Positions 3,859 through 38,394 of a stretch of DNA of 43,587 nucleotides are shown here, in pieces; position 1 is the stretch's first letter, and every line of letters starts with the position of its first letter. The position numbers and the translations under genes are program-made. The notes under the pieces were generated by a model that was not told the origin of the DNA, did not search any database, and saw only the letters and a program-made list of their open reading frames with translations. The stretch lies in sequence record NC_027993.1; one strand, 5' to 3'. Source of the DNA: Escherichia phage K1G.

Positions 3859-4319
3859 TGATGGGCTTTTTCAAAGTAACTGACGTACCGTCACGCCGCG
3901 TAGTCCAGTACGCCCGCGTGTCTGGCTCTGGTGAGAACGTGGTGTTTATTGATGATGAAAGTGTACTCGGTACACCCGAAGACGATATGCCGTTTGCAGA
4001 TAAAACCGGTATTGCGTTACCCGCGGCGGGCATGCTTTATGAAATTCCGTATCTGGCGGATGCTGGCGACGTGTATTTCTCAGTGCAACCCGCCGATACA
4101 GAACTGGTAGACGGCCGCGCAACTATCACTGTCGAAGTTAAGGCGGGCAAAGCGCCATATGCGTTGACCTGGTACAAAGACGGGAAGGAAGTGGTCAACG
4201 CCCCGGAAGAGGCTTTGTCTCTGAAGGTTAATGCAGTCGGTGAATACTTCGTTAAAGTCACCGATGCCGATGGGGTAGAGGCCGTCAGTAAAGCGGCGAA
4301 GGTTACTAAGCCAGAATAA
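3858..4319 (+). CDS. Ig-like domain structural protein
   Basis: RBS AAGGGGA; C-terminal segment APYALTWYKDGKEV...GEYFVKV resembles Ig-like fold motif shared with ORF 7366..7716. Confidence 0.5.
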   Translation: MMGFFKVTDVPSRRVVQYARVSGSGENVVFIDDESVLGTPEDDMPFADKTGIALPAAGMLYEIPYLADAGDVYFSVQPADTELVDGRATITVEVKAGKAPYALTWYKDGKEVVNAPEEALSLKVNAVGEYFVKVTDADGVEAVSKAAKVTKPE

Positions 4320-4324
4320 ACTGA

Positions 4325-4344
4325 AGCCCCGAAAGGGGCTTTTT
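4325..4344 (+). terminator. rho-independent terminator
   Basis: AGCCCC-GAAA-GGGGCT hairpin followed by TTTTT. Confidence 0.7.
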
Positions 4345-4437: not shown

Positions 4438-4617
4438 CCACCTGAGCTTGTGAAGTATGAACAAGCGACCGCGGCGCGGGCAGGTAACGGAGCGGGACGT
4501 AAGTCCTGAGTGTAGTTACGCTGACGCGTTCGGAAGGGCCATAGTCTATCGCTTGTGTAAAAAAGTAACTGGTTTACTGAGATTACGCCGTTTCTATGTT
4601 TAAATGATAAGGACTAG

Positions 4618-4640
4618 CGCCCCGCTTTATGGCGGGGCTT
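4618..4640 (+). promoter_or_regulatory. leader hairpin GCCCCGC-TTTATG-GCGGGGC (possible attenuator or processing site) just upstream of spanin RBS
   Basis: 7-bp GC stem followed by short TTTA; same hairpin in reverse orientation at 36779-36798. Confidence 0.4.
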
Positions 4641-4662
4641 TACTTATCGAGAAAGGAGAAAC

Positions 4663-5049
4663 ATGAATCTTAACGCAACTGTCGTAGCAGGAGCATGTTT
4701 CATCCTCCTGACATACGGCTACGGAATCTACCAGTATCGCAGCGGCTGGAACGAAGGCCGGGCGAATCTCGTTTCGCAGCAACAGCAGAAAGCACAGGCT
4801 GAGTTAGCGAAGAAAACACAACGGCAGCAGCAGGATGAATCAAAGGCCGCAGCCGCTGACAACGAAGGCAAGACGAAATCAGAGGTGATCACACGTGAAG
4901 TCGTTAAGTACATTAAAACGCCTGGTCGCAGCGTGTGCGCTTTTGACCCTGAGCGCGTGCAGCTCAAGTCCCGCGCCGTCGCAAACGCCAATTCCATCCC
5001 CGGATACGACGATGATGCAGCCGCCGTGCAAACTGGCGCCGCCAAGTAG
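4663..5049 (+). CDS. i-spanin (Rz-like)
   Basis: 128 aa; N-terminal TM segment VVAGACFILLTYGYGIY, Gln/Ala-rich coiled-coil periplasmic region; RBS AAGGAG; embedded out-of-frame lipoprotein ORF. Confidence 0.65.
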   Translation: MNLNATVVAGACFILLTYGYGIYQYRSGWNEGRANLVSQQQQKAQAELAKKTQRQQQDESKAAAADNEGKTKSEVITREVVKYIKTPGRSVCAFDPERVQLKSRAVANANSIPGYDDDAAAVQTGAAK

Positions 5050-5158
5050 CGACGCTGACGAGGATTTAGCTGCCGACGTCCGGAACGCCGAATGCGCACG
5101 GCAACTGCGCCTGAAAGTATTCCAGTTGCAGGATTATGTGAGGAATATTCTGGAATAG
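4895..5158 (+). CDS. o-spanin (Rz1-like lipoprotein), GTG start, +1 frame embedded in and extending past i-spanin
   Basis: signal peptide with lipobox LTLSAC, proline-rich mature region; RBS AGAGGTG upstream of GTG. Confidence 0.65.
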   Translation: MKSLSTLKRLVAACALLTLSACSSSPAPSQTPIPSPDTTMMQPPCKLAPPSSDADEDLAADVRNAECARQLRLKVFQLQDYVRNILE

Positions 5159-5240
5159 TTGCCTTGCATGTTGGAATAATTTATTCTTGACATGTAAATC
5201 CGGGTGGCCCGGGTTCCAACGTCCAGGGGACATACTGACT

Positions 5241-5942
5241 ATGAATCGTTTTTTACGTTATCCGTTCCAGGAAGAAGCTGGAGCAGAAGATAAATCAGGC
5301 GGCGGTGACGCACCTAAAATGTACACAGCCGAAGAAGTGCAGGCGCTGATTGAGAAAGAAGTCGCCGGGCTTAAGGCTAACCAGGAAGCATTGCTGAACG
5401 AGAAGAAAGAAGCCGCTCGTAAAGCAAAAGAGGCCGAAGAAGAGCGGCAGCGTGCACACCAGGAGGCCCTGAAAGCCGCCGGTAAGATGGACGAGTTCGA
5501 AAAGACGATTCGTAGCCAGTATGACCCGGTGTTAGCCGAGAAAGATGGTCGCATCTCCAGAATGGCAGAGCGCATCCTCGGCAGCGAACGCAAAGCGGTG
5601 TTAGGTTCTTTCGCGGGTGACTTCATTACCCCGGAAGCAGTAGACATTCTCGCGCCGTTCGTTAAGACTGAGTTTGAAGGTGATGATGTGGTTACTAAGT
5701 TTGTCGGCGCGGATGGCAACGTAGTCACAACTGACCCGGAACAGTTCCGCAAATACCTGCGCGAACATAAAGCGTTTTCGCATTTGATTAAAGCAAATGC
5801 AGCTTCCGGCGGCGGGGCTTCCGGTAGCAAAGGCGGCGGGGCCGCACCAGCGTTTAAAGACATGAGTGAAGCAGAGCGTTTAGCCCTGTATAAATCGAAC
5901 CCTGCCGAATTTGAACGGCAACTTAAAGCCCTGAGGAAATAA
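5241..5942 (+). CDS. scaffolding protein
   Basis: Ala/Glu/Lys-rich coiled-coil protein immediately upstream of major capsid gene; RBS AGGGGA before ATG at 5241 (track ORF begins further upstream at 5187). Confidence 0.55.
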   Translation: MNRFLRYPFQEEAGAEDKSGGGDAPKMYTAEEVQALIEKEVAGLKANQEALLNEKKEAARKAKEAEEERQRAHQEALKAAGKMDEFEKTIRSQYDPVLAEKDGRISRMAERILGSERKAVLGSFAGDFITPEAVDILAPFVKTEFEGDDVVTKFVGADGNVVTTDPEQFRKYLREHKAFSHLIKANAASGGGASGSKGGGAAPAFKDMSEAERLALYKSNPAEFERQLKALRK

Positions 5943-5944
5943 TA

Positions 5945-6994
5945 ATGGCAATTACCACTATCGGCGATATCGTAACTGGCAACATCCCGGTCCTGGCGTC
6001 TTATATGACCGAGGACCCGGTAGAAAAAACCGCGTTCTTCCAGTCTGGTATTCTGACCCCGACTCCGTACGCTGCCGAGATTGCTCGCGGTCCGTCCAAC
6101 GTCGCCAACATTCCTTTCTGGAAAGCGATTGATACTTCTATCGAGCCTAACTACTCGAACGATGTTTATCAGGACATCGCTACCCCGCGTAATGTGCAGA
6201 CTGGCGAGATGATGGCCCGCGTTGCGTACCTGAACGAAGGTTTCGGTCAGGCGGACCTGACTGTCGAACTGACCAGCCAGAACCCTCTGCAATCCGTAGC
6301 GTCCCGTCTGGATAACTTCTGGCAGCGTCAGGCACAACGCCGTCTGATTGCTACCGCGCTCGGTCTGTACAACGACAACGTAGCTGCTACCGATGCTTAC
6401 CATACGCAGAACGATATGGTTATCGACGTGTCCGCTACTCTGGGCTTCGACGCAGGTGCGTTCATCGACGCCACTCAGACTATGGGCGATGCTCTGATGG
6501 GTAACGGTGGTGAGGTGCTGGGCGCTATCGCGATGCACAGCTTCGTTTATGCACAGGCGCGTAAGCAGCAGCTTATCGACTTCATTCGCGACGCTGACAA
6601 CAACACCATGTTTGCTAGCTACCAGGGCTACCGTGTGATTGTTGACGACAGCATGACCGTAGTCGGCACCGGCCCGAGCCGTAAGTTCATCTCCATCATC
6701 TTTGGCAACGGTGCCATCGGTTATGGTGAAGGCAACCCGTCCAACCCGCTGGAATACGAACGTGAAGCGTCCCGCGGCAATGGTGGCGGCGTTGAAACCC
6801 TGTGGACCCGTAAGACCTGGTTGCTGCACCCACTGGGCTACAGCTTCACCAGCGCGGTAATCACCGGCAACGGCACCGAGACTGTCGCCCGCTCCGCTTC
6901 CTGGCAGGACCTGGCGAACGCCTCCAACTGGAACCGTGTGGTTGACCGTAAGCATGTACCGATTGCCTTCCTGGTAACTGGTGTCGGGGCTTAA
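5945..6994 (+). CDS. major capsid protein
   Basis: 349-aa ORF after scaffold, RBS GAGGA, followed by strong terminator; position and size. Confidence 0.7.
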   Translation: MAITTIGDIVTGNIPVLASYMTEDPVEKTAFFQSGILTPTPYAAEIARGPSNVANIPFWKAIDTSIEPNYSNDVYQDIATPRNVQTGEMMARVAYLNEGFGQADLTVELTSQNPLQSVASRLDNFWQRQAQRRLIATALGLYNDNVAATDAYHTQNDMVIDVSATLGFDAGAFIDATQTMGDALMGNGGEVLGAIAMHSFVYAQARKQQLIDFIRDADNNTMFASYQGYRVIVDDSMTVVGTGPSRKFISIIFGNGAIGYGEGNPSNPLEYEREASRGNGGGVETLWTRKTWLLHPLGYSFTSAVITGNGTETVARSASWQDLANASNWNRVVDRKHVPIAFLVTGVGA

Positions 6995-10716: not shown

Positions 10717-11129
10717 TGGGCTACTTTGAGGACTTAACAAAAGCGTTCGATGTTCCGCTGGTAGCCTTCGGAACCGCCAACGGCATCAAGGTCGCGCTTG
10801 AAAACATCGACGCGCCGACGTCAACCGATACGCCATATCTGGCAAGTTACATGTTACTGGCGGATACCGAGCAAGCAGATTTGTTCTTCACGGAACAACG
10901 CGCGGGTGTTTATCAGGTCGACATTAACTACGCATCGGTGAAAGGTAGCGCGCCAATCAATAAAATGGCAGACTTACTTAACACGGCATTCAAAGCAGGT
11001 AAGTCATTTTCTCGTAACGACATCTGCGCCGAGGTTCAATCGGTTAGCCTGGGGCCGCTGATTGTAGAAAACGGATGGGCCAAACGACCATTGTCAATTA
11101 ACTTTATTGCATTCACCAAGAGGCTGTGA
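10713..11129 (+). CDS. hypothetical tail-associated protein
   Basis: ATGA overlap with upstream gene. Confidence 0.55.
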   Translation: MMGYFEDLTKAFDVPLVAFGTANGIKVALENIDAPTSTDTPYLASYMLLADTEQADLFFTEQRAGVYQVDINYASVKGSAPINKMADLLNTAFKAGKSFSRNDICAEVQSVSLGPLIVENGWAKRPLSINFIAFTKRL

Positions 11130-11131
11130 AT

Positions 11132-12298
11132 ATGGCTACAACTCCTTTTAAGGGCGCGAATACTGCGCAATTCTATGTGGCAGAAACTACCCCTGGCGTA
11201 ACACCGACTAACCCGGTCTGGTCGCCATTGCGTAACACAGGTGGCGTTCCTGCCATTACCCGCGACACGCTGACCTCCAACGAACTGGACGGCAGCCGTG
11301 AAACTACGTCAATCCGCACCGGTAACAAGCAGGTTAGCGGAGAATACGCTATTGAGCTTAGCTCGAAAAGCCAGGACGACTGGCTGGCGGGTGCTTTAGG
11401 CTCTACATGGCAATCCGGTAGTTCTCTGACCGGGCTATCAATTACCGTCGCGCCTGCAGACAAGACCTTTACCCGTGCCGAAGGTAGCTTTATTTCTGAC
11501 GGCGTTGAAGTGGGCGACCTGATTGCGTTTACCGACTTAACCGGTGACAACGCAAAACCGTTTATCGTAACTGCAGTAGAGGCGCTGGTAGTGACCGGGG
11601 CGGGTATCCAGCATACCCTGACCACAGAGACAGTAACTACCGCCGCTAAGACAGGGGATAAACTGGAAACGGGAAGCCAGTGCAAGACGTTCTCTATTCT
11701 CACCTGGTACAAAGGCCAGTGCGGCGGGACTGACGCGTACACACTAACCAAAGGCGTGGAAGTTTCTGGTTTTACCATCGAACAGGCTGTTAACGCTATG
11801 GTAACTGGCAGCTTCCCGTTCATCGGTCGCAGTCAGGAGATTCTCACCACGCAGCCGTCTGGTTCTGATTTCTCCTCTGTTACGTTTGGTGACGAGCCAT
11901 TCTCCTCGGTCGATGTTTCTGTGTTCGACGGTTCTACGCCGTTGCGTTGCGACAGCCTGACCATCACCAACGACAACAGCGCGTCCGCACAGTTCGAACT
12001 CGGCAACACTAACGTAGCGTTTGTGGAGCGTAGCCGAGCAGCTAACACCTTCTCCATCTCCGGTAAGCTGTACGACATGGCGATGATTCAGAAGTTTATC
12101 AACGAGCAGCAGGTGGAGATTAACTCTATTCTGGCGGGGGTAAACGGGGCTATGTCTTTCAGTTTGAAACGTGCAGAACTTACGGCGGTTACACCTGAGA
12201 TTGGAGGACCTGAGTCAATCACTCAGTCTATTGAAGGCCAGGCTACCGGCAACCAGTACCAGTCGTCTATTGTTATTCAGCGTATCACATACGCATAA
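11132..12298 (+). CDS. major tail protein (by position)
   Basis: 389-aa Thr/Ser/Gly-rich protein upstream of chaperone and tape measure genes, followed by strong terminator; RBS AGAGG before ATG 11132. Confidence 0.55.
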   Translation: MATTPFKGANTAQFYVAETTPGVTPTNPVWSPLRNTGGVPAITRDTLTSNELDGSRETTSIRTGNKQVSGEYAIELSSKSQDDWLAGALGSTWQSGSSLTGLSITVAPADKTFTRAEGSFISDGVEVGDLIAFTDLTGDNAKPFIVTAVEALVVTGAGIQHTLTTETVTTAAKTGDKLETGSQCKTFSILTWYKGQCGGTDAYTLTKGVEVSGFTIEQAVNAMVTGSFPFIGRSQEILTTQPSGSDFSSVTFGDEPFSSVDVSVFDGSTPLRCDSLTITNDNSASAQFELGNTNVAFVERSRAANTFSISGKLYDMAMIQKFINEQQVEINSILAGVNGAMSFSLKRAELTAVTPEIGGPESITQSIEGQATGNQYQSSIVIQRITYA

Positions 12299-12302
12299 AA
12301 CT

Positions 12303-12328
12303 AAGGCCCCGTTTGGGGCCTTTTTCTT
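12303..12328 (+). terminator. rho-independent terminator (convergent junction)
   Basis: AAGGCCCC-GTTT-GGGGCCTT hairpin then TTTCTT; reverse complement of the hairpin at 24829. Confidence 0.7.
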
Positions 12329-12881
12329 ACAAACCTAATCTTAAAGCAATGCCTATAGCGTTCGATTTAACGTAACCCGGTATGATGTAGGTGTCATAAT
12401 CTTTTACACCATCAATATCGTACAGGTAACCGCGGCTGTCCCCTTCAAACGTATGGCCGTCTCTGTGCAAGCGGACGATTCTCACATCATGCCCTGCGGC
12501 AACGATAGGGGCTACTTCGCTGGCGAACCCGCCATCAGACACCACAAAAACTTCGTCGCCGTCGGGCAAGTTTCCGGCAAGATACTTACCGAAATAATCA
12601 TCACCGAATACCGGTTTAATGAATTGCTCGGAAATGGCAATCATTAACTGACGCCGAGACAACCCGTTAAGGAAACCCTCTGGCTTTTCTTTCCGCGCCC
12701 GGTCGTCGTAGCCGTCGAGAAACTCGCGGTAAGCATCCTGGCCTAACGCAGCCATAGCAATATTGAACATCGGATTCTTGAAACTGGCGACACCCTTCGC
12801 AAAGCCCATTTCTACCAGCGCCCTAGCAAGTGTGTCTTTCCCGCAGCCCGCAGGACCATTAAGAATAATTACCTTAGCCAT
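12327..12881 (-). CDS. P-loop nucleotide/polynucleotide kinase (dNMP-kinase-like or Pnk-kinase-like)
   Basis: Walker A GPAGCGKDT near N-terminus; 184 aa; start overlaps stop of upstream HAD gene. Confidence 0.75.
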   Translation of the reverse strand: MAKVIILNGPAGCGKDTLARALVEMGFAKGVASFKNPMFNIAMAALGQDAYREFLDGYDDRARKEKPEGFLNGLSRRQLMIAISEQFIKPVFGDDYFGKYLAGNLPDGDEVFVVSDGGFASEVAPIVAAGHDVRIVRLHRDGHTFEGDSRGYLYDIDGVKDYDTYIIPGYVKSNAIGIALRLGL

Positions 12882-13366
12882 TATTTATCACTCCCATGTG
12901 GTTTTAAGTGTGTAGAGTTCCCGTTACAGTCGTATTCAGTAACTGCGTGAGTGGTTATGCCGAGTTCGCGGAAATGCTTTATTACCGCTGGAGAGTCGTC
13001 GAATGCACACAAGATTCTCTCCGGCCCAATAGCACGCAACACCTCTTCTTTAATTACGATGTCTTTTCTGTTGTCGTGTTTGCTGCGCATGATTAACTGA
13101 TAAAATTCGACGCGGTGGCGCTGCAACCACATTCTGGTTTCTTTTTCCGCGTCATCACTACGGCCTGTTAAGATAATAACGGCATAGCGACGATTAAGGG
13201 CGTTACACAGTTCGATGTTATCTTTAATGGGTGCATCGTCTTTGCACGCCATGTTAAATGGTTTCCACGCCCAGGTTTCGCCGTAGTTATCTTTCGGCAG
13301 CAGGTGTAAACGATGAGTACCATCTGCCAATGTCCCGTCTAAATCGAAAATCACAATATCTTTCAT
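12881..13366 (-). CDS. HAD-superfamily phosphatase (polynucleotide 3'-phosphatase-like or 5'-nucleotidase-like)
   Basis: HAD motif I FDLDGTLAD, motif II ILTGR, motif IV AFDDSP; 161 aa. Confidence 0.75.
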   Translation of the reverse strand: MKDIVIFDLDGTLADGTHRLHLLPKDNYGETWAWKPFNMACKDDAPIKDNIELCNALNRRYAVIILTGRSDDAEKETRMWLQRHRVEFYQLIMRSKHDNRKDIVIKEEVLRAIGPERILCAFDDSPAVIKHFRELGITTHAVTEYDCNGNSTHLKPHGSDK

Positions 13367-14493
13367 CCAAGCATCTCCGGTGAAATAGTTAAACGTGCGA
13401 CCTCGCCATATTCGGCGCTATAAGTAATTACGTTTGCGCTACGGCCTGACATCCACCCGCCGCGGGAAGCATATGCATCTTTCGCCGCTAAGGTGCGATG
13501 TTGCTCAACAACCATGTTACGGCTTTCTACAATCTTTTGGTGGTGGAGATGCCCGACATGTGCGTAACTGTACTCGCTTTCGCCGAACGCTTTGCGGAAC
13601 TTGGCGATCATAACCGGTTCGATAGCATCGAAGCGTGCTTTATGGCCGTGGTGAAAGAACAGCGTAGTTTTGCCGTGTTGCACCATCTTGTAAACATCCG
13701 GCGACGTATCGACGAACACACGCGGCTCATTGTCGTACAGCGTACTAAACATCTCAGCTAACCAAATCATTCCGCTTTCGTCGTGGTTACCTTGCACAAT
13801 AAGCAAGCGAACATTTTTATGCTTAACAAGGGCCATATCAACGACACGGCGGACCATACGAATCATGTAGCGGACCAGTTTCTGATAGCGCGTGTCCGCA
13901 TCGAGAACATGACCACTTGCCGGTGTAACGGCGTCCAGACTATCGAAATGCGCAAGGTCGCCCAGCAGATTAATAACTCCTGTTCCGGCATCCGGTGCTT
14001 TCTGGAACGCTGCGTCGAACCAGCGGGAGAACAGGTCTTCCGCAATCTTCATGTCCCAGTCGTCGCCGCTCTCGTCAGCCCAGGCCAGCATACCGAGATG
14101 GAAATCAGACACAGTGTAAAGGTTGAGTAGCTTGTCGTCTCGTTTGGCGCGAACGGCTTTAACAGGTGCAACTGGTGTAATCTCCGACTTCATGCCTTCG
14201 ATTACGGCTTTCATCAATTCAACCTGACGTTCGGCATCGGTGTCGGTCTTAACCCATTGCAACTTGGTGTTGCCAAACTCATCCACCAGTGATGACGTTC
14301 CTTTAATCTTGTAGCCGTCCGGTACAAGGTAACTAACGTCACGCCCGTGGCCTACACCTTTCTTAGCCAGCTTCGCTTTACGGATACGAATAACGCGGTC
14401 GGAGATGCCGTATTTACGGGCGATGTCGATATTCTTCATACCGGCGTTCAATTCTTCCTGTAACTGTTCGTCGGTTATTTTCTTCCTGGCCAT
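13363..14493 (-). CDS. calcineurin-like metallophosphoesterase with N-terminal HTH
   Basis: motifs DFHLG, GDLAHFD, GNHDE, GHLHH in order; N-terminal segment NIDIARKYGISDRVIRIRK HTH-like; RBS GAGGAA. Confidence 0.75.
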   Translation of the reverse strand: MARKKITDEQLQEELNAGMKNIDIARKYGISDRVIRIRKAKLAKKGVGHGRDVSYLVPDGYKIKGTSSLVDEFGNTKLQWVKTDTDAERQVELMKAVIEGMKSEITPVAPVKAVRAKRDDKLLNLYTVSDFHLGMLAWADESGDDWDMKIAEDLFSRWFDAAFQKAPDAGTGVINLLGDLAHFDSLDAVTPASGHVLDADTRYQKLVRYMIRMVRRVVDMALVKHKNVRLLIVQGNHDESGMIWLAEMFSTLYDNEPRVFVDTSPDVYKMVQHGKTTLFFHHGHKARFDAIEPVMIAKFRKAFGESEYSYAHVGHLHHQKIVESRNMVVEQHRTLAAKDAYASRGGWMSGRSANVITYSAEYGEVARLTISPEMLG

Positions 14494-14530
14494 GCTTATT
14501 CCTCGTGTTTAGGATTTGTCCTATACTAGC

Positions 14531-14722
14531 TCACTTCTCTTTGACATTCGAGTTGCACGCCCAGATTAAGATAAATACCCACGGCAGCAGAACCCAACCA
14601 AGAAACAGATTAGCCATGAATATCGCTAACTTCGCTTTATGGTTACGGAAGTACGCAACCAGGAAAGGCGCGAAATAAGCGAGCAGTGCAAACAGAATTA
14701 AGGAAACTGGTAAACTGGACAT
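14531..14722 (-). CDS. small 2-TM membrane protein, superinfection-immunity-like (Imm-type motif)
   Basis: 63 aa from ATG 14722 (RBS AAGGGG; track ORF starts 15 nt upstream); motif RNHK...NLFLGWVLLPWVFILIWA recalled as typical of Imm_superinfect family. Confidence 0.5.
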   Translation of the reverse strand: MSSLPVSLILFALLAYFAPFLVAYFRNHKAKLAIFMANLFLGWVLLPWVFILIWACNSNVKEK

Positions 14723-14752
14723 TTTAAACCCCTTCATTGTTGGTGTAAGTGA

Positions 14753-14781
14753 ATAGTACCCTATTATATTGGGGTGTGCAA
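14753..14781 (-). promoter_or_regulatory. early-type promoter TTGCAC-N17-TACTAT (family 2) driving the antisense cassette
   Basis: minus-strand sequence cTTGCACaccccaatataatagggTACTATtcac nearly identical to + strand promoter at 37043; contains AATAG-N4-CTATT. Confidence 0.5.
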
Positions 14782-14889
14782 GTAATGTGATAGAATAAGT
14801 TTGCGCCTAGTGTCGCACACGAAAAGCGGGTGGTTCCCGTCTGGCGCATTTATCGTTAACCTGTAACCTCTTAACCAAAGGATTAAAGA

Positions 14890-15306
14890 ATGAAACTTTC
14901 TGATTTTTATTTCGAAGAGAAAGCACTGGTAGGCAAGAAGATGCCCATTCTGCTGCCAAACGGCGAAGACTCCGGTGAATGGCTTAACGTTGTAAGTCCC
15001 GATGCGGATGTCGCCGTTAAAGCGGGGCGTGCTTTCATTATTGCGTACCGTCGCGGGTTGGCGCGTTTCGAAGAACTGGAAAAAGCCGCCAAAGAATCCG
15101 GCGACTATACTGAATATAACCTGGCTATTAACGAACTGGCGGAAGACCTCAACCGGCAACTCGCGGCAGAAGTCGTAAACGGCTGGAGCTTTGATGAGCC
15201 TTTCTCTAAAGAAGCATTTAACAAATTGCTGGACCAGTTCAAGGCATTAGGCACACAGGTAGCAGCGTTCCATAACGCTGAGCGCAAAGCATTACAGGAA
15301 AAGTAG
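14890..15306 (+). CDS. tail assembly chaperone (G-like)
   Basis: 138-aa acidic ORF immediately upstream of tape measure gene; -1 frame ORF overlaps its 3' end. Confidence 0.55.
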   Translation: MKLSDFYFEEKALVGKKMPILLPNGEDSGEWLNVVSPDADVAVKAGRAFIIAYRRGLARFEELEKAAKESGDYTEYNLAINELAEDLNRQLAAEVVNGWSFDEPFSKEAFNKLLDQFKALGTQVAAFHNAERKALQEK

Positions 15307-15671
15307 ACGCGCTGTACAGGTTCGCCACCTATGAGTTTGTGGATAAGCATAAAATCAGAGAGTTTGATTCTATAGCCGACGGACACGAACAGGCGCTTAT
15401 CGCGATGGGTGTAATCGATAAGAAAAAACGTGCAGCGCGACGGGGTGGGCCAGAATGCCCGCCCCTTTTTATATCCACCTTCGAGACGTACTGCGACATT
15501 AAGTTTACGCGACACGTGCGCGAGGACGCTGTAGTATTGTTCGCAAGAGAATCCGTTACGTGGCAAGACCTGAAAGCCTATCTCGATGTTACGCAAAAAC
15601 AGCTTAGCCTGTTCGAGATAGACATTATCATGGGCTTAGAAGCAATCTTTGAAGGTAGAAATCATGGCTGA
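14890..15671 (+). CDS. putative G-T fusion via -1 frameshift near 15298-15304
   Basis: -1 frame is open from 15282 to 15671 and overlaps tape measure start; slippage candidate GAA AAG UAG (Lys tRNA AAG to AAA next to stop). Confidence 0.4.
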
Positions 15672-17937
15672 TACCGCTAGCTTGATCGTACGAGTATCAT
15701 CGACCGGCGTCGATAAAACCACATCACAACTGAACGGGCTTACCAAAGCCGCGGGGGCCGCCGCCGCTGCCGTTGTCAGTCTGGAAACTGCCAAACAGGT
15801 GTTCAGTGCGCTGGTGGACTCCCAGCGCAACTTCGATAAGCTGAACTCCGGCCTCATCACAATGACCGGGAGCGCCGAGAACGCTGCTAAGGCATTCAGC
15901 GTCCTGCAACAGTTCGCAAAAGAAACTCCGTATGGCCTCAATCAGGCGGTAGAGGGGTTTACCAAGCTCGTGGCGCTAGGTCTTAACCCCAGCAAAGAGG
16001 CGTTAATATCCTACGGCAACACCGCCGCAGCTATGGGCAAAGACCTTAACCAAATGATTGAGGCAGTTGCCGACGCCAGTACATTTGAATTTGAGCGCTT
16101 AAAAGAGTTCGGTATCAAGTCTTCCCAACAGGCGGATACAGTTTCGTTTACGTTCCGTGGCGTAACGACCACGGTTAAAAAGAACTCCGAAGAGATTCAG
16201 AAATACCTGCTAAATATCGGTAACACTGATTTCGCCGGAGCGATGGAGACGCGCTCGAAGACCTTAGATGGTCAGTTATCTAGCCTGGCGGACTCCTTCG
16301 ATGGTCTTGTTCTTGCGGTAGCGCAATCCGGTTTTGGCGACGCGGTAGGCGAACAAGCGGCAACAGCGGAAGATGCTATCACCGCACTCACCGACGCCAT
16401 CGCGTCCAATGAGATCTCCGCCACGCTCCAGGATTGGGTGACACTGTTCAATGAGTCGTTCAAGTTTATTTCTGATGCCCTGAATGACCTGGCATTCGAT
16501 ACCGAGGACAAATCCGTTGATATGTCCGACTCGCTGGGGGATATACCGGATGCCATCCGTGAGTGGTTGCCGGATATCCAGCAGACATTCCACGAGGTTA
16601 TTGCGTGGTTCCAGCGCATTGACGACTACGCGGTAGCGTTAGGCCAGACCCTTGCTGATGTGTTTGACCCGAGCAAAACGTCGGCGCTCACATTTAAAAA
16701 ACTGACTGCAGAGGCTGATGCCGCATACGACGCCAGTATAAAACGTGCAGAGGCCGAATCCCAAGCCATTACCGACAGGTCTAAGCAGCGTAAGAAAGAA
16801 ATTGAGGAACAGCGCAAGCAGTACGACGAGCGTAAGAAGCAAGAAATTGACTTAGCCAGCCTTGTTAATAAAAAGGGCGGAACTGGTGGGGTGGGGACAA
16901 CCGACGATAAAGCAGCAAAAGCCGCCGCCAAGAAAGCAGAGCAATTGCGGAATCAGGCGCAAGATTACCTCGACACTTTGGCCCGTCAGAACAACGACGA
17001 GTTAAAGGCTATCGACGCGCAGGAACAGCAGAAACTGGCTAAGGCAAAAGAGTTCTACAGCCAGGGCGCGTTGTCCCTGAAAGAATATGAACAAGCTAAA
17101 ACAGCTATCGTCCTCGAAGCCGGGCAAAAACGACAAGATGAACTGGATAAACGCCAGAAAGAAGCCCAGGAAAAGCAACAGAAAGGTGACGACTTCATGG
17201 CTCAGATTATGGGCCAGAACGCTACTGAGCTTGAGCTTCTCGACATCCAGGAACAGCAGAAGCTGGCGGTAGCAGATAAGTACCGTGAGCAGGGACTTAT
17301 TAGCGAGAAGCAGTATCAGGCCGCGCTTAACGCCATCAACGAGCAATACGCCACCAAGCGCGCCGACGCAACGGCAACCGCCTTCGGTAACATGGCCTCA
17401 AACATCGGGTCTGCGTTGGGTGAGGCTTCCGGCGCGTACAAAGCATTCGCTATTGTGCAGGCCACTATCGCCACGTACACCGCGGCTATTGAGGCGTACA
17501 AGTCTACGGCGGCTATCCCTGTTGTTGGCCCCTTTCTGGCTCCTGTAGCCGCTGCCGCTGCCGTTGGGGCGGGTATGGCGCAGATTTCCGCTATCAGGTC
17601 AGCACGTGAACAGGGCGGTCAGTTATCCGCGGGGCAGGCTTCTACTATCGCTGAACGTGGTAAACCCGAAGTTATCATGCCCGCTGGCGCATCGCGTGTG
17701 CGCACTGCACAGCAGATGAAAGAAATTATGGGGCAAAACGGGTCTTCCTCCGGCCCATCTAATGTTACCATTGTAAATAATACATCGAGTCAGATTGGCA
17801 ACGTATCCACCGAGCAGGATGATGAAGGCCGTCTGCGTATCATCATAGAAGAGCAAGTTGCTGCATCTTTGCAGAACAGCAACAGTAAGATTAGCAAGGC
17901 CCGCAAGGCCACAAGAAACGCGCCGGGGTTTAAATAA
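15649..17937 (+). CDS. tail tape measure protein
   Basis: 762 aa, Ala/Gln/Glu/Lys-rich coiled-coil, located after G/GT. Confidence 0.8.
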   Translation: MKVEIMADTASLIVRVSSTGVDKTTSQLNGLTKAAGAAAAAVVSLETAKQVFSALVDSQRNFDKLNSGLITMTGSAENAAKAFSVLQQFAKETPYGLNQAVEGFTKLVALGLNPSKEALISYGNTAAAMGKDLNQMIEAVADASTFEFERLKEFGIKSSQQADTVSFTFRGVTTTVKKNSEEIQKYLLNIGNTDFAGAMETRSKTLDGQLSSLADSFDGLVLAVAQSGFGDAVGEQAATAEDAITALTDAIASNEISATLQDWVTLFNESFKFISDALNDLAFDTEDKSVDMSDSLGDIPDAIREWLPDIQQTFHEVIAWFQRIDDYAVALGQTLADVFDPSKTSALTFKKLTAEADAAYDASIKRAEAESQAITDRSKQRKKEIEEQRKQYDERKKQEIDLASLVNKKGGTGGVGTTDDKAAKAAAKKAEQLRNQAQDYLDTLARQNNDELKAIDAQEQQKLAKAKEFYSQGALSLKEYEQAKTAIVLEAGQKRQDELDKRQKEAQEKQQKGDDFMAQIMGQNATELELLDIQEQQKLAVADKYREQGLISEKQYQAALNAINEQYATKRADATATAFGNMASNIGSALGEASGAYKAFAIVQATIATYTAAIEAYKSTAAIPVVGPFLAPVAAAAAVGAGMAQISAIRSAREQGGQLSAGQASTIAERGKPEVIMPAGASRVRTAQQMKEIMGQNGSSSGPSNVTIVNNTSSQIGNVSTEQDDEGRLRIIIEEQVAASLQNSNSKISKARKATRNAPGFK

Positions 17938-21869: not shown

Positions 21870-24824
21870 ATGTCAAGCGGATGTGGTGACGTTTTAAGCC
21901 TGGCGGATTTACAGACCGCCAAGAAGCACCAGATTTTTGAAGCCGAGGTTATCACGGGTAAATCCGGCGGAGTAGCCGGGGGCGCAGATATTGATTACGC
22001 GACAAACCAGGTTACAGGGCAGACCCAGAAGACACTACCTGCCGTGTTGCGTGACGCTGGTTTTAAACTGGCAGATTTTGATTTCACGTCAGGCGGTACA
22101 CTATCCGCTAACGACCGAAACACCGCAGTTTTGTGGCCGTCGTCCTCTGGCGGTGACGGGGATTGGTACTATTGGTTGGGTGCTCTACCAAAAATTATCC
22201 CGGCGTCATCTTCTCCGCAGTCCACCGGTGGCGTGGCAGATGGGGCGTGGCAGCCTGTCGGGTCGGTCATACTGCGGCAGCAAATATCTGATGTAAACGG
22301 TGCAATTCTGTACCCAGATTTACATGTGGCGCGATGGAAGGACGAATACGACCCGCGCGCATGGGGCGCCGTGGGCGACGGCGTAACTGATGATACTCAA
22401 TCTATTTTTAATGTATTAGCAGCTTCCCCCAACAATTGGATTATAGACGGCAGGGGTTTGACTTATAAAGTTTCCCAATTACCTGACATTAGTAAATTTA
22501 AGAATGCTGCATTCGTTTACGAGCGCGTAGCCGGGCAACCGCTTACTTATGTAGCTGATGGCTTCTTTAACGGTTCACTAACTAAGGTGACGGATACCCC
22601 GTTCTACAACGCATGGACGCAGGATAAAACTTTCGTCTACGACCATGTTATTTACGCCCCGTTTATGGCGGGCGAACGACATGGTGTTCAAAACTTACAT
22701 GTAGCTTGGGTTCGCTCTGGAGACGACGGGCAGACTTGGTCAATGCCTGAGTGGTTGACTCCAATCCATGCTGACTATAATGCTAGTGTTTCTACGGACA
22801 GAGTTAACTACCACTGCATGAGCATGGGTACGTGCGGCAACCGATTATATGCAGTTATAGAAACCCGCTACTTATCTAATATGCGGATGAAGAAGGCAGA
22901 ACTTTGGTCACGCCCAATGCCGTATTTTAGACACCCAACCGGCGGAATAACTATTAGTTCTGGCTCCACTACTGCTACCATTGTCATAGAAAATCATGGC
23001 CTAAAAGCAGGAGATGCGGTTAACTTCTCTAATACATCGGCAACTGGCGTATCGGGTAATATGACGGTTTCGTCTATAATTAACCGAAATACGTTCACTG
23101 TTACGCTCTCAAGCCCGGCGAGTTCCACCATAAACAATGCGGGTGTTACCTGGAACTTCGCAACGCGATTCTGGGACAGCCCGTGGGAAATTACCGAATT
23201 GCCTGGGGTAGCATACTCCACTAACGCTGATTTGTGTGTCACGGAGACACATAGTTTTGCGGTTATAGATGATGTTAACTACACTATCGCTGTCGGCTAT
23301 CACAACGGCGATGTGTCCCCTAGGCGTCTCGGTGTCTTGTATTTTAGTAACGTGTATGACAATCCTGGCGTATTCGTTCGTCGCACTGTCGCTCAGGCAT
23401 ACGCTGATAACGCTTCTGAGCCGTGCGTGAAAAGTTATGGTGGTGTGTTATACCTTACCACACGCGGCACATTACCTACTTCCCCTGGCTCTACACTGGC
23501 GATGAGCACCGATTCTGGGCAAAACTGGAGCTACTTGCGATTTCCGAACAATGTACATCACTCCAATCTTCCGTTCGCTAAAGTAGGTGACTATCTCTAC
23601 ATCTTTGGTACAGAACGTGCCTTTGGTGAGTGGGAAGGTGGCGAGCAGGACAGCCGCTATGAAGGTTCGTATCCGAGGACCTTTATGTGCAAAGTTAATG
23701 TGTCGTCCTGGCCTTCATCTTTAGATGATGTTCAGTGGTTTAATATTACCGACCAAATATACCAGGGTCATATCGTTAACTCTGCTGTCGGCGTCGGCTC
23801 GGTCTGTGTTAAAGATGGCTGGTTGTACTATATCTTTGGTGGGGAAGACTTCTTCTCTCCCTGGAGCATAGGGGATAACAGTGCGAAGTTATGGTACAAA
23901 CATGATGGGCATCCGGCTGACTTATATAGCTACCGGATAAAGATTGAAGACCACCCGTACGTATCACGTGATTTCAAATACGGAGCAACTCCTAACCGTA
24001 CAATACCTGTCGCCATGGGGGTAGATGGTGTACGCCATGTAGAAGCACCTTTAACGTTTGACAATGATGTAAGCGTGTACTCCCTGCATGTAACGGGGCT
24101 GGAATACGATGGTACACAACAGTCTGCCGTGCGCGCACGGTTTGATGGTGATTACGGGCTGATTTCAAAAACAGTCCCCACTAAAACCCCATCGGCTCAA
24201 AGACTGATAGTTAGCGGTGGTGATGGCGCATCCAGTTCCGATGGTGCGTTGCTGCAACTGTACGGGGCAAACCATGCAACGCCTAACAGGGCTATTATGT
24301 ATGCGTCAGGAGGCTTCTACTCATACAACAATTTCCTTCCTTACTTAGACTCGCAAGTGTCTTTAGGTTCGGCAGGTAATAGGTGGACTACGGTGTACGC
24401 GACCACCGGTACGATAAACACGTCTGATGGTACACTTAAGACGAACAAAGAGGAAATTGAGGGACAACTCCTTACCGCATGGGAAGATATACATGTAATA
24501 TCTTTTAAGTGGCTTGAAAGCCTAGCAATCAAGGGTGACACTGCAAGGATACACTTCGGTGTGATAGCCCAAGATGTGCGAGACATCTTGGTCAACCATG
24601 GGCTTATGGAGAAAGATTCTACCAGTTGTAAATATGCTTTCTTGTGCTACGACTCAATTGAAGCTGCGTATGATATTGATGAAGATGGCCAGACTGTACA
24701 AGTATCCCCTCCCGGCGGCAGATGGGGAGTTAGGGCGGACCAGATGTTCTTCATAGAGATTGCCTATCAGCGTAAGAAGATGCGCGAGTTCGAGAAGAGG
24801 CTGGCAGCACTAGAAGATAAATAA
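21870..24824 (+). CDS. endosialidase tailspike (endo-N-acetylneuraminidase) with C-terminal intramolecular chaperone domain
   Basis: 984 aa; Asp-box motifs SGDDGQTW and STDSGQNW; long stretches matching recalled K1F-type endosialidase (e.g. GDGVTDDT, NYHCMSMG, HNVHHSNLPFAKVGD, ARIHFGVIAQDVRD); RBS AAAGAGGA. Confidence 0.85.
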   Translation: MSSGCGDVLSLADLQTAKKHQIFEAEVITGKSGGVAGGADIDYATNQVTGQTQKTLPAVLRDAGFKLADFDFTSGGTLSANDRNTAVLWPSSSGGDGDWYYWLGALPKIIPASSSPQSTGGVADGAWQPVGSVILRQQISDVNGAILYPDLHVARWKDEYDPRAWGAVGDGVTDDTQSIFNVLAASPNNWIIDGRGLTYKVSQLPDISKFKNAAFVYERVAGQPLTYVADGFFNGSLTKVTDTPFYNAWTQDKTFVYDHVIYAPFMAGERHGVQNLHVAWVRSGDDGQTWSMPEWLTPIHADYNASVSTDRVNYHCMSMGTCGNRLYAVIETRYLSNMRMKKAELWSRPMPYFRHPTGGITISSGSTTATIVIENHGLKAGDAVNFSNTSATGVSGNMTVSSIINRNTFTVTLSSPASSTINNAGVTWNFATRFWDSPWEITELPGVAYSTNADLCVTETHSFAVIDDVNYTIAVGYHNGDVSPRRLGVLYFSNVYDNPGVFVRRTVAQAYADNASEPCVKSYGGVLYLTTRGTLPTSPGSTLAMSTDSGQNWSYLRFPNNVHHSNLPFAKVGDYLYIFGTERAFGEWEGGEQDSRYEGSYPRTFMCKVNVSSWPSSLDDVQWFNITDQIYQGHIVNSAVGVGSVCVKDGWLYYIFGGEDFFSPWSIGDNSAKLWYKHDGHPADLYSYRIKIEDHPYVSRDFKYGATPNRTIPVAMGVDGVRHVEAPLTFDNDVSVYSLHVTGLEYDGTQQSAVRARFDGDYGLISKTVPTKTPSAQRLIVSGGDGASSSDGALLQLYGANHATPNRAIMYASGGFYSYNNFLPYLDSQVSLGSAGNRWTTVYATTGTINTSDGTLKTNKEEIEGQLLTAWEDIHVISFKWLESLAIKGDTARIHFGVIAQDVRDILVNHGLMEKDSTSCKYAFLCYDSIEAAYDIDEDGQTVQVSPPGGRWGVRADQMFFIEIAYQRKKMREFEKRLAALEDK

Positions 24825-24828
24825 AACT

Positions 24829-24854
24829 AAGGCCCCAAACGGGGCCTTTTCTCT
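24829..24854 (+). terminator. rho-independent terminator (convergent junction, bidirectional)
   Basis: AAGGCCCC-AAAC-GGGGCCTT hairpin then TTCTCT. Confidence 0.7.
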
Positions 24855-27628: not shown

Positions 27629-27913
27629 CTAACTATAATAGCTAGCTATTAGGTCGTCAACCTGTTTAAACGAACCAACGACAAAAACATTCGCACCACG
27701 TTTACGCATCCGCTCATGTTCCCGTAGCTGGTGCGGGTCTGGCTTCGTGTTCTCGTCTTTCTTAACCTCGACGAACCAGACTATGCCGCCGGGGAGAATT
27801 ACCAGCAGGTCTGGGGCGCCGGAACGCCCCTCGTAGGAGAGTTTGCGAACGAGGCCGCCAAGGGCCTCGAATCGGTCTTTTGCGTATTTCTGTACGCGGC
27901 CCTCTTTAGTCAT
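27629..27913 (-). CDS. VRR-NUC domain nuclease
   Basis: PD-(D/E)xK signature GAPDLLV...VEVKK; ATG at 27913 overlaps upstream stop. Confidence 0.6.
   Translation of the reverse strand: MTKEGRVQKYAKDRFEALGGLVRKLSYEGRSGAPDLLVILPGGIVWFVEVKKDENTKPDPHQLREHERMRKRGANVFVVGSFKQVDDLIASYYS
27632..27660 (-). promoter_or_regulatory. early promoter TTGACG-N17-TATAGT (family 1) with 16-bp perfect palindrome TAATAGCTAGCTATTA in spacer
   Basis: read on minus strand: TTGACGacctAATAGCTAGCTATTATAGTT. Confidence 0.6.
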
Positions 27914-30446: not shown

Positions 30447-30460
30447 TATTTTTGACCCTT

Positions 30461-30486
30461 AGTAAAAAGGCCCAATGAAGGGCCTT
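30461..30486 (-). terminator. rho-independent terminator for leftward transcripts
   Basis: minus-strand AAGGCCC-UUCAUU-GGGCCUU followed by UUUAC. Confidence 0.6.
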
Positions 30487-30505
30487 AGTTAAATTGATTC
30501 AGATA

Positions 30506-31185: not shown

Positions 31186-31214
31186 ACTATAATAGCTAAC
31201 TATTCGGGTGTCAA
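31186..31214 (-). promoter_or_regulatory. early promoter TTGACA-N17-TATAGT (family 1)
   Basis: minus strand TTGACAcccgAATAGTTAGCTATTATAGTT; near-palindromic AATAG-N4-CTATT. Confidence 0.6.
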
Positions 31215-33334: not shown

Positions 33335-33363
33335 ACTATAATAGCGAACTATTCACTTGTCAA
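33335..33363 (-). promoter_or_regulatory. early promoter TTGACA-N17-TATAGT (family 1)
   Basis: minus strand TTGACAagtgAATAGTTCGCTATTATAGTT. Confidence 0.6.
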
Positions 33364-37042: not shown

Positions 37043-37071
37043 TTGCACACCCCAACATAATAGGATACTAT
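37043..37071 (+). promoter_or_regulatory. early promoter TTGCAC-N17-TACTAT (family 2)
   Basis: cTTGCACaccccaacatAATAGGATACTATTcac. Confidence 0.5.
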
Positions 37072-38358: not shown

Positions 38359-38365
38359 AATTTAC

Positions 38366-38394
38366 TTGCACACTAAGATAGAATAGGCTACTAT
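38366..38394 (+). promoter_or_regulatory. early promoter TTGCAC-N17-TACTAT (family 2)
   Basis: cTTGCACactaagatagAATAGGCTACTATTcat. Confidence 0.5.

What the first reader, a model, noticed from the sequence alone, without database searches (positions are those of the whole stretch)
12327..14781. Early-promoter-driven antisense cassette inside the tail-gene block: Imm-like membrane protein, HTH-metallophosphoesterase, HAD phosphatase and P-loop kinase
Four minus-strand genes interrupt the plus-strand late operon between the major tail gene and the chaperone/tape-measure genes. They are driven by a promoter (14753-14781) almost identical to the early promoters at 37.0 and 38.4 kb and end at a bidirectional terminator. 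The last three genes are translationally coupled through ATGA overlaps at 13363-13366 and 12879-12882. A P-loop kinase, a DxDGT HAD phosphatase and a binuclear metallophosphoesterase together cover the activities of polynucleotide kinase-phosphatase end-healing enzymes (T4 Pnk uses a HAD phosphatase, bacterial Pnkp a metallophosphoesterase), with phosphatase-then-kinase order as in eukaryotic PNKP. No ligase is seen nearby. Alternatives are nucleotide-pool remodelling (the kinase also resembles dNMP kinases with GKDT) or a nucleic-acid damage/anti-defence function. The linkage with a superinfection-immunity-like membrane protein and an HTH on the phosphoesterase is unusual.
Basis: partly seen in the sequence, partly recalled or inferred. 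Interest (0 to 1): 0.75.

Follow-up and report, generated by a model that had tools for sequence, protein, structure and literature searches.

The report
Accessory nuclease, phosphatase, kinase operon in phage
Four backward-facing genes inside the tail-gene block of this E. coli phage (a Kagunavirus) are real but already annotated in many close relatives, and they look more like a kit for breaking down DNA and handling free nucleotides than a kit for repairing broken RNA or DNA ends.

Summary
Four minus-strand genes lie between the major tail gene and the tail chaperone: Imm-like 14531-14722/14737, HTH-metallophosphoesterase (MPE) 13363-14493, HAD phosphatase 12881-13366 and P-loop kinase 12327-12881. 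A promoter repeated at 37.0 and 38.4 kb precedes them and a two-way hairpin terminator follows. The window is a Kagunavirus, 98.5% identical here to deposited phages that already annotate these genes.

The PNKP end-healing reading is only partly supported.
- The HAD is a T4-Pnk-type phosphatase domain, but it is also distantly related to T5 Dmp, a dNMP 5'-phosphatase.
- The kinase has the T4 gp1 / T5 Dnk dNMP-kinase fold and matches T4 Pnk only at the P-loop.
- The MPE is closest to the nucleases DP1, Mre11 and SbcD, not to lambda-phosphatase/Pnkp enzymes.
- The window has no ligase.

The cassette is composite. Imm+MPE is the conserved core in Guernseyvirinae. HAD->kinase is a separate mobile pair, adjacent in 74 of 80 loci. 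MPE->HAD->kinase recurs in three phage families.

Best reading (about 0.45): DNA breakdown and dNMP processing, paralleling T5 A1, Dmp and Dnk. No member has been tested biochemically. Interest is low to moderate.

The parts
14753..14781 (-). Sigma-70-type promoter: -35 TTGCAC at 14781-14776, 17-nt spacer, -10 TACTAT at 14758-14753. The palindrome AATAGGGTACTATT (14765-14752) overlaps the -10 element.
   Evidence: Conserved in Kagunavirus relatives.
14531..14737 (-). Imm-like small membrane protein. The probable true start is 14722, giving 63 aa.
   Evidence: PF14373 at 9.3e-13, 48.3 bits against a cut-off of 27.9. phrog_1039 at 4.7e-23. K1ind1 annotates 63 aa. 75% identical to the Jersey homologue.
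13363..14493 (-). N-terminal HTH fused to a binuclear metallophosphoesterase (376 aa), predicted to be a nuclease.
12881..13366 (-). Stand-alone HAD phosphatase of the PNKP-phosphatase clade (161 aa). Its start overlaps the MPE stop in ATGA.
   Evidence: PF25109 at 6.7e-20. Profile against Pnkp1 4.6e-15 and T4 Pnk 8e-10. hhalign against T4 Pnk 97.7% over residues 159-298. hhalign against T5 Dmp 79%.
12327..12881 (-). P-loop (GKDT) kinase with the gp1/Dnk dNMP-kinase fold (184 aa). Its start overlaps the HAD stop in TAATG.
12303..12322 (.). GC-rich hairpin with T-runs on both strands. It is a predicted bidirectional intrinsic terminator shared by the major tail gene and the cassette.
   Evidence: A near-identical hairpin lies at 24821-24850.
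37043..37071 (+). Sister promoter TTGCAC-17-TACTAT with palindrome 37059-37072. It drives small ORFs that start at 37097/37106.
38366..38394 (+). Sister promoter TTGCAC-17-TACTAT with palindrome 38382-38395. It drives ORFs that start at 38426.

Best explanation
The cassette is a separately transcribed accessory operon built from three units that can occur apart.
1. A small Imm-type inner-membrane protein, presumably for superinfection exclusion.
2. An HTH-fused Mn-type metallophosphoesterase that most likely cuts DNA. It is a core gene of Guernseyvirinae and Drexlerviridae.
3. A mobile gene pair: a capless HAD phosphatase of the T4-Pnk-phosphatase / T5-Dmp clade followed by a gp1/Dnk-fold dNMP kinase.

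It is read from a sigma-70-type promoter that carries the same palindromic operator as the replication-gene and right-arm promoters. It is therefore regulated with the non-structural genes, not with the tail genes that surround it.

The most likely joint job of the three enzymes is DNA breakdown and processing of the resulting nucleotides. The nuclease fragments (host) DNA. The phosphatase removes terminal or free phosphates: either 3'-phosphate ends that block further digestion, or dNMPs as T5 Dmp does. The kinase converts 5'-dNMPs to dNDPs for phage DNA synthesis.

Shown here: gene anatomy, homology and fold assignments, recurrence of the gene order. Inferred: substrates, host DNA as the target, timing.
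For: Kinase.
- The GKDT P-loop and downstream motifs are shared with T5 Dnk (97%) and T4 gp1.
- In rV5-like phages the homologue sits next to thymidylate synthase and ribonucleotide reductase.
- In rV5-like phages and ICP1 it is followed by a different, NT5C-type HAD nucleotidase. The kinase therefore pairs with a HAD phosphatase through two unrelated HAD subfamilies.

HAD.
- It is related to T5 Dmp, a dNMP 5'-phosphatase, as well as to the T4 Pnk phosphatase domain.

MPE.
- All metal-binding motifs are invariant and the fold is nearest to DNA nucleases.
- Precedents for phage MPEs that degrade host DNA are T5 A1, which lies in one operon with dmp (bioRxiv 10.64898/2026.04.02.716235), and mycobacteriophage Gp48 (PMC12287305).

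Gene order.
- MPE->HAD->kinase recurs in Kagunavirus, Webervirus-like Drexlerviridae and Era103-like podophages: 44 of 80 loci.
- HAD->kinase are adjacent in 74 of 80 loci.
- A 2026 survey of 522 Drexlerviridae independently saw the same neighbourhood and proposed a role in nucleotide supply (PMC13164509).

Other.
- No ligase is present in the window.
- The promoter family is shared with the replication block.
- In a Kagunavirus RNA-seq study, imm falls in the same temporal class as DNA polymerase and the methylases, not with the tail genes (PMC12645636).
Against: - No member of any of the three families from these phages has been assayed.
- The HAD is closer in sequence to polynucleotide 3'-phosphatase domains (E 1.7e-12) than to T5 Dmp (E 1.6e-5). 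Capless HADs usually act on macromolecules.
- Similarity of the MPE to T5 A1 is negligible (18.6% probability, one motif).
- In T1 and many other phages the MPE lies far from HAD+kinase or occurs without them, so a joint pathway is not required.
- A phosphatase plus a kinase acting on the same dNMP pool would be a futile cycle unless their specificities differ.
- In Era103-like and phi-A318 podophages the kinase is followed by a DNA ligase, which would also suit end healing.
Confidence: 0.45

Rival explanations
1. Split polynucleotide kinase-phosphatase. The HAD removes 3'-phosphates and the kinase phosphorylates 5'-OH ends of broken DNA or RNA. The MPE acts as a 2',3'-cyclic phosphodiesterase or trimming nuclease. 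Ends are then sealed by a host ligase, or by the phage ligase in some relatives, for example to undo damage from host defence nucleases.
For: - The HAD is a PNKP-type phosphatase above the Pfam threshold. The six positions I recall as essential in T4 Pnk align with conserved residues (D8, D10, R19, R69, D102, D123/124).
- A phosphatase and a kinase are strictly adjacent in 74 of 80 loci, echoing the two domains of Pnkp.
- In Era103-like phages the order is MPE-HAD-kinase-DNA ligase. In phi-A318 the order is MPE, one gene, kinase, ligase.
- Pseudomonas putida MPE makes 3'-PO4 ends that would need such healing (PMC7826289).
Against: - The MPE is not of the lambda-phosphatase/Pnkp clade.
- The window has no RNA or DNA ligase. 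From general knowledge, E. coli RtcB needs unhealed ends.
- The ligase in T7-type phages is a standard replication gene, so adjacency may be incidental.
- There are no PADLOC hits and no defence-related context.
Confidence: 0.2
2. The genes share a transcription unit but have unrelated jobs. The MPE is a core replication, recombination or DNA-maturation nuclease (Mre11-like) acting on phage DNA, or a late nuclease linked to lysis. HAD+kinase is an independent nucleotide-metabolism insertion. Imm is an exclusion moron. No joint pathway exists.
For: - The MPE occurs alone in 2052 phage records across many families and is a persistent gene in 508 of 522 Drexlerviridae, next to the lysis cassette.
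- T1 keeps HAD+kinase 35 kb away from the MPE.
- Jerseyvirus has Imm+MPE with an HNH endonuclease and an antirepressor-like gene in place of HAD+kinase.
- Imm is replaceable.
Against: - The identical order MPE->HAD->kinase, with overlapping or near-abutting genes, has arisen or been kept in three unrelated phage families. That is more than a random insertion site would predict.
- No Rad50/SbcC partner is annotated.
Confidence: 0.25
3. Counter-defence by destroying or converting signalling or trigger nucleotides. The MPE would act as a cyclic or linear nucleotide phosphodiesterase. HAD and kinase would remove or convert nucleotide triggers such as m6-dAMP released from degraded host DNA.
For: - A defence system triggered by m6-dAMP from phage-induced chromosome degradation has been described (bioRxiv 10.64898/2026.01.15.699771).
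- The promoter is of an early type.
Against: - There is no homology to known anti-defence enzymes and there are no PADLOC hits.
- An N-terminal DNA-binding HTH suits a DNA enzyme better than a small-molecule one.
- The idea is purely speculative.
Confidence: 0.07

Closest known systems
The same cassette in published Kagunavirus genomes (K1ind1-3, K1G/K1H group, vB_EcoS-UTI89UKE1, fKuEco01, RP180)
   Same: The sequence is 95.6-98.5% identical over 11800-15400. The same four genes occur in the same place and are already annotated as immunity protein, metallophosphoesterase or DNA repair exonuclease, polynucleotide kinase/phosphatase, and deoxynucleotide kinase or ATP-binding protein.
   Different: Nothing material differs. 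K1H-like members replace imm with a 108-aa signal-peptide protein.
Phage T5 A1 (metallophosphatase, host DNA degradation), Dmp (dNMP 5'-phosphatase) and Dnk (dNMP kinase)
   Same: The three enzyme classes match. In T5, A1 and dmp lie in one operon with the MPE upstream of the HAD. The kinase is homologous to Dnk (97%). The HAD is distantly homologous to Dmp (79%).
   Different: A1 is 556 aa, lacks the HTH and is barely alignable. dnk is in a different operon in T5. According to that paper, T5 excretes host nucleosides rather than recycling them. The HAD here is closer to Pnk phosphatase domains than to Dmp.
T4 polynucleotide kinase-phosphatase (PseT) and Capnocytophaga Pnkp1
   Same: The HAD domain is homologous, with a DxDGT nucleophile motif and conserved Arg and Asp residues.
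   Different: The proteins here are separate rather than fused. The order is phosphatase then kinase. The kinase belongs to another family. There is no RNA ligase partner.
T4 gp1 deoxynucleoside monophosphate kinase (PDB 1DEK)
   Same: It is the best structural match, with 170 residues aligned, and shares the GKDT P-loop.
   Different: Identity is only 20%. The protein here is shorter (184 against 241 aa). It has DGGF where T4 has PDTR. Substrate range is unknown.
Mre11/SbcD and archaeal PolD DP1 nucleases; Pseudomonas putida MPE (PdeM)
   Different: An N-terminal HTH plus beta-hairpin module stands in place of a capping domain. No Rad50/SbcC partner is present. Sequence-level matches are absent (TIGR04123 E 0.09).
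Mycobacteriophage A10ZJ24 Gp48 metallophosphoesterase
   Same: It is an early-expressed phage MPE that damages host genomic DNA (PMC12287305).
   Different: Homology to the window's MPE was not tested here, and the host and phage lineage differ.

Membership tests
Polynucleotide kinase-phosphatase, T4 Pnk type | HAD (DxDGT) 3'-phosphatase domain homologous to T4 Pnk residues ~160-300 | tested here: met
   PF25109 scores 72.1 bits against a cut-off of 27.6. hhalign gives 97.7%, E 1.7e-12, 130 columns. A profile search of PDB sequences gives 4.6e-15 for Pnkp1 and 8e-10 for T4 Pnk.
Polynucleotide kinase-phosphatase, T4 Pnk type | 5'-OH polynucleotide kinase domain homologous to the Pnk kinase | tested here: not met
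Polynucleotide kinase-phosphatase, T4 Pnk type | Kinase and phosphatase in one polypeptide, with a ligase partner encoded by the same genome | tested here: not met
   The two are separate ORFs with a TAATG overlap. tblastn with four ligases finds none in the window, and none is annotated in K1ind1.
Bacterial Pnkp (Clostridium thermocellum type) / lambda-phosphatase clade of metallophosphoesterases | MPE domain of the lambda-phosphatase / protein-phosphatase clade | tested here: not met
Binuclear metallophosphoesterase superfamily | Five metal-binding motifs (DxH, GD, GNH[D/E], H, GHxH) and the alpha/beta sandwich fold | tested here: met
   D130, H132, G178, D179, N236, H237, H282, G314 and H317 are invariant and H315 is nearly invariant across 53 sequences. 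The model has pLDDT 93.3. Foldseek gives 105 matches with E<=0.001, all of those listed being MPE-fold proteins. Pfam matches are below threshold.
Mre11/SbcD nuclease | Rad50/SbcC ATPase partner and capping domain | tested here: not met
   No SbcC/Rad50-like gene is annotated in the near-identical genome K1ind1. The adjacent P-loop protein is a 184-aa NMP-kinase fold. The model has an N-terminal HTH and no C-terminal capping domain.
Mre11/SbcD nuclease | DNA nuclease activity | not testable with these tools
   Only fold similarity is available.
gp1/Dnk-type deoxynucleoside monophosphate kinase | GKDT P-loop and an NMP-kinase fold with a helical NMP-binding insert similar to T4 gp1 | tested here: met
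gp1/Dnk-type deoxynucleoside monophosphate kinase | Phosphorylation of dNMPs | not testable with these tools
   No assay exists for any member of this subfamily, as far as the searches found.
T5 Dmp-type dNMP 5'-phosphatase | Sequence homology to T5 Dmp over the HAD core | tested here: inconclusive
   hhalign gives 79% probability, E 1.6e-5, 136 columns. BLASTP gives E 1e-4 over 48 residues. This is weaker than the match to T4 Pnk.
Imm superinfection immunity protein (PF14373) | Pfam model above the gathering score; small hydrophobic protein | tested here: met
   The score is 48.3 bits against 27.9. phrog_1039 scores 4.7e-23. Exclusion activity is not testable here.
Anti-phage defence or anti-defence proteins in PADLOC | Match to any PADLOC model | tested here: not met
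   Only P-loop noise appears for the kinase (E>=0.017). The other three proteins have no matches.

The most novel reading that the evidence does not exclude
The PNKP-type HAD phosphatase and the gp1-fold kinase, almost always adjacent, form a split polynucleotide kinase-phosphatase in which a dNMP-kinase scaffold has replaced the usual Pnk kinase. Together with the HTH-MPE nuclease, they would trim and heal 3'-phosphate/5'-hydroxyl DNA breaks, for example those made by host defence nucleases. Sealing would be by host LigA, or by the adjacent phage ligase in Era103-like phages.
Probability: 0.15. Interest if true: 0.65.

Novelty: already known. Interest (0 to 1): 0.3.

Why it matters
The gene set is common. 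The MPE occurs in about 2,000 sequenced phages, the kinase in about 1,500 and the HAD clade in about 3,000. The trio recurs in three phage families, several of which are used for phage therapy of E. coli and Klebsiella. No member from these phages has been assayed.

GenBank labels are inconsistent and partly misleading. Examples are 'polynucleotide kinase' for a phosphatase-only protein, and 'DNA polymerase II small subunit', 'replication factor C' or 'GTP-binding protein Era' for the others.

Showing that the kinase has the dNMP-kinase fold, that the HAD is related both to Pnk phosphatases and to T5 Dmp, and that the MPE is nuclease-like gives a concrete, cheap hypothesis to test: host-DNA breakdown and nucleotide handling as in T5 A1, Dmp and Dnk. 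It also corrects the tempting RNA-repair reading. If the hypothesis is confirmed it adds a detail to phage nucleotide economy, not a new principle.

Tried and rejected
- Sequence search of the kinase and the MPE against PDB gave only P-loop noise or nothing. Structure prediction was needed.
- NCBIfam gave nothing above threshold, and PADLOC gave no matches beyond P-loop noise for the kinase.
- The search for homologous proteins with the MPE returned only near-identical proteins and was of little use for diversity. The 50%-representative search supplied the alignment instead.
- I looked for a HAD-kinase fusion (a Rosetta stone). The Pbunavirus 346-aa 'polynucleotide kinase/phosphorylase' has an N-terminal HAD_PNKP domain, but its C-terminal domain is unrelated to the kinase family.
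- T5 A1 against the MPE family matched only one motif, at 18.6% probability. This is not evidence of specific homology.
- tblastn with T4 gp1 showed that its BLAST-level family is essentially the T4-like phages and does not reach this kinase family. The link rests on fold and profile comparison only.
- The Kagunavirus RNA-seq paper has coarse classes, with 5-120 min sampling and DNA polymerase called 'late'. The text and held supplements do not give the class of the MPE, HAD and kinase genes, so timing stays unresolved.
- Literature searches for T1 host DNA degradation and for experimental work on these proteins found nothing.
- A weak tblastn hit of the Era103 ligase N-terminus inside the primase-helicase ORF (35536-35733, E 3e-4 in a single-subject search) was judged to be chance.
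Full report
WHAT IS THERE. The window is a Kagunavirus (Guernseyvirinae). The stretch 11800-15400 is 98.5% identical to Escherichia phages vB_EcoS-UTI89UKE1 and fKuEco01, and 95.6-95.8% identical to K1ind1-3. In all, 294 phage records match. Four minus-strand ORFs lie between the major tail gene (11126-12298, +) and the tail assembly chaperone and tape measure genes (14890-15306 and 15649-17937, +):
- KIN, 12327-12881, 184 aa
- HAD, 12881-13366, 161 aa
- MPE, 13363-14493, 376 aa
- IMM, 14531-14737, 68 aa

The deposited relatives already annotate them as immunity protein, metallophosphoesterase or DNA repair exonuclease, polynucleotide kinase/phosphatase, and deoxynucleotide kinase or ATP-binding protein.

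SIGNALS. On the minus strand, TTGCAC (14781-14776), a 17-nt spacer and TACTAT (14758-14753) form a promoter-like site. A 34-nt stretch around it recurs at 37042-37075 (+) with two mismatches, against none in 100 shuffles. A 47-nt stretch recurs at 38362-38408 (+) at 83%. All three carry the palindrome AATAG-N4-CTATT over the -10 element.

The same palindrome occurs at three further minus-strand promoters inside the replication block, of the form TTGAC(G/A)-17-TATAGT, at 27637, 31191 and 33340. That makes six sites against 0.04 expected. The cassette therefore belongs to one regulon with the non-structural genes. The promoter is conserved in most Kagunavirus loci, and the palindrome is also present upstream of imm in Jersey.

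'Early' remains an inference. The only Kagunavirus RNA-seq study places imm in one class with DNA polymerase and the methylases, not with the tail genes. Its classes are coarse, and it gives no class for the three enzyme genes (PMC12645636).

The hairpin at 12303-12322 folds at -15.5 kcal/mol on the + strand and -19.0 kcal/mol on the - strand, with T-runs on both sides. The MPE/HAD overlap is ATGA. The HAD/KIN overlap is TAATG, not ATGA. The Imm start is probably 14722, which has a Shine-Dalgarno sequence and gives 63 aa as in K1ind1.

THE FOUR PROTEINS.

IMM. It passes the Pfam Imm_superinfect threshold, with 48.3 bits against 27.9.

HAD. It passes PF25109 HAD_PNKP at 6.7e-20. A 12-sequence profile gives 4.6e-15 against Pnkp1 and 8e-10 against T4 Pnk among solved structures. 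hhalign against T4 Pnk gives 97.7% over residues 159-298. The invariant residues D8, D10, R19, R69, D102 and D123/D124 align with the positions I recall as essential in T4 Pnk; that recollection is from knowledge and was not tested here. The same profile also matches T5 Dmp, the dNMP 5'-phosphatase, at 79% probability and E 1.6e-5 over 136 columns. The substrate, a polynucleotide 3' end or a free nucleotide, is therefore not settled by homology.

- T5 Dnk: 97.1% over 61 columns
- T4 gp1: 79.6% over 73 columns
- T4 Pnk: 25 P-loop columns only

COMPARATIVE CONTEXT. The cassette is composite.
- MPE distribution. It occurs in 2052 phage records of many families and has 4661 representatives at 50% clustering. 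It is often alone, as in SECphi27, Vibrio K137 and Rhodobacter RcMcDreamy. A 2026 survey found it persistent in 508 of 522 Drexlerviridae, next to the lysis genes. The same survey found 'polynucleotide kinase' and 'dNMP kinase' to be its most frequent downstream neighbours and suggested a role in nucleotide supply (PMC13164509).
- Jersey. It keeps Imm+MPE but has an HNH endonuclease, a 76-aa protein and a Rha/KilAC antirepressor-like protein in place of HAD+KIN.
- K1H-like Kagunaviruses. They replace imm with a 108-aa signal-peptide protein.
- T1. HAD, an HNH endonuclease and KIN lie at about 5 kb, and the MPE lies at 40.8 kb.
- 80 IMG/VR loci found with a kinase alignment. HAD lies just upstream of KIN on the same strand in 74. 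MPE->HAD->KIN occurs in 44, spanning Kagunavirus, Webervirus-like phages and Era103-like podophages.
- phiEa100. The order is endonuclease VII, MPE, HAD, KIN, DNA ligase.
- Vibrio phi-A318. An unrelated MPE lies two genes upstream of KIN, which is followed by a ligase.
- rV5-like phage and ICP1. KIN is followed by an NT5C-type HAD nucleotidase unrelated to the window's HAD. In the rV5-like phage this lies beside thymidylate synthase and ribonucleotide reductase.

The kinase therefore pairs with a HAD phosphatase through two independent HAD lineages, one of which is a nucleotidase family.

INTERPRETATION. The kinase belongs to the dNMP-kinase lineage, the MPE to the nuclease side of its superfamily, and the genome has no ligase.

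The best-documented parallel is phage T5. A1 is a predicted metallophosphatase that is essential and sufficient for host chromosome degradation. Dmp is a dNMP 5'-phosphatase in the same pre-early operon, downstream of A1 (bioRxiv 10.64898/2026.04.02.716235; gene map). Dnk is a dNMP kinase. A mycobacteriophage MPE that wrecks host DNA early in infection is a second precedent (PMC12287305).

I therefore favour DNA breakdown plus nucleotide processing at about 0.45. The MPE would cut DNA. The HAD would clear 3'-phosphates or dephosphorylate nucleotides. The kinase would feed dNMPs towards dNDPs. The steps are inferred, and none has been assayed.

The rivals are as follows:
- independent functions sharing an operon (0.25)
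- a split, non-orthologous Pnkp for DNA end healing (0.2), supported mainly by the strict phosphatase-kinase adjacency and the ligase neighbour in podophages
- nucleotide-signal or trigger removal as counter-defence (0.07)

NOVELTY AND SCORE. The cassette is essentially identical to published, annotated genomes, and the trio's neighbourhood has been described in print. It is already known as a feature, although its biochemistry is unexplored.

This analysis adds four things: the family placement of the kinase and the MPE, the dual kinship of the HAD, the modular history of the cassette, and the shared operator-bearing promoter family. A specialist would not be very surprised. Interest is 0.3. 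The most novel reading not excluded is the split Pnkp built on a dNMP-kinase scaffold, with probability about 0.15.

Noticed in passing
window 14752-14765, 27637-27650, 31191-31204, 33340-33353, 37059-37072, 38382-38395: A perfect palindrome AATAG-N4-CTATT sits on six promoter-like sites, against 0.04 expected. There are two promoter layouts: TTGCAC-17-TACTAT and TTGAC(G/A)-17-TATAGT. It looks like one operator controlling all non-structural operons. The regulator is unknown; candidates are the 69-aa HTH ORF at 36442-36651 (-) or the HTH of the MPE itself.
   Followed up: partly
window 37508-37581: Three perfect tandem copies of a unit (26-nt copies at 24-nt spacing, ATCCGTATAACTGACCGCAGGCTTAT) lie inside small ORFs just downstream of the 37.0-kb promoter. 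They could be iterons or a binding array.
   Followed up: no
window 4315-4344, 12295-12324, 24821-24850, 30460-30498; also 4615-4642 and 36775-36802: Near-identical GGCCCC-N4-GGGGCC hairpins are reused at several operon ends. A perfect 28-nt inverted pair is separated by 32 kb. These appear to be recycled terminator modules.
   Followed up: partly
L009, L014, L015, L019, L021 (K1H-like Kagunavirus loci), about 3997-4323 in locus coordinates: The imm slot upstream of the MPE is occupied by a 108-aa protein with a signal peptide (MRKLVLALG...), and the TTGCAC promoter is not found in the 407 nt upstream of the MPE. The first position of the cassette is a variable slot for envelope-related genes.
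   Followed up: partly
L007 (Jerseyvirus jersey) 4681-6196: Downstream of the MPE, Jersey carries an HNH endonuclease (PF13392), a 76-aa protein and a Rha/KilAC antirepressor-like protein in place of HAD+kinase.
   Followed up: yes
L089 3004-4205 (rV5-like ECP2309); L090 2953-4271 (ICP1 gp170-gp171): The kinase homologue is directly followed by an NT5C-like HAD nucleotidase (PF06941, 26.5 bits). The rV5-like and ICP1 proteins are 32% identical to each other and are unrelated to the window's HAD family. This is a second, independent kinase plus HAD pairing.
   Followed up: yes
L098 2477-3517 (Pbunavirus C_MDJ-2023): A 346-aa protein has an N-terminal HAD_PNKP domain and an unrecognised C-terminal domain of about 190 aa. 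It lies between thymidylate synthase and the DNA polymerase genes. The C-terminal domain is not related to the kinase family here.
   Followed up: partly
window 14890-15306 and 15339-15671: Two chaperone ORFs lie upstream of the tape measure gene. The near-identical K1ind1 record annotates them as a joined (frameshift) tail assembly chaperone pair.
   Followed up: no
L092 124-858 (T5 dmp): T5 Dmp has no Pfam family in this library, yet it aligns with the PNKP-type HAD family (DLDGT...HR...N.ACK.D). The classical T5 dNMP phosphatase seems to be an unrecognised member of, or neighbour to, the HAD_PNKP clade.
   Followed up: partly
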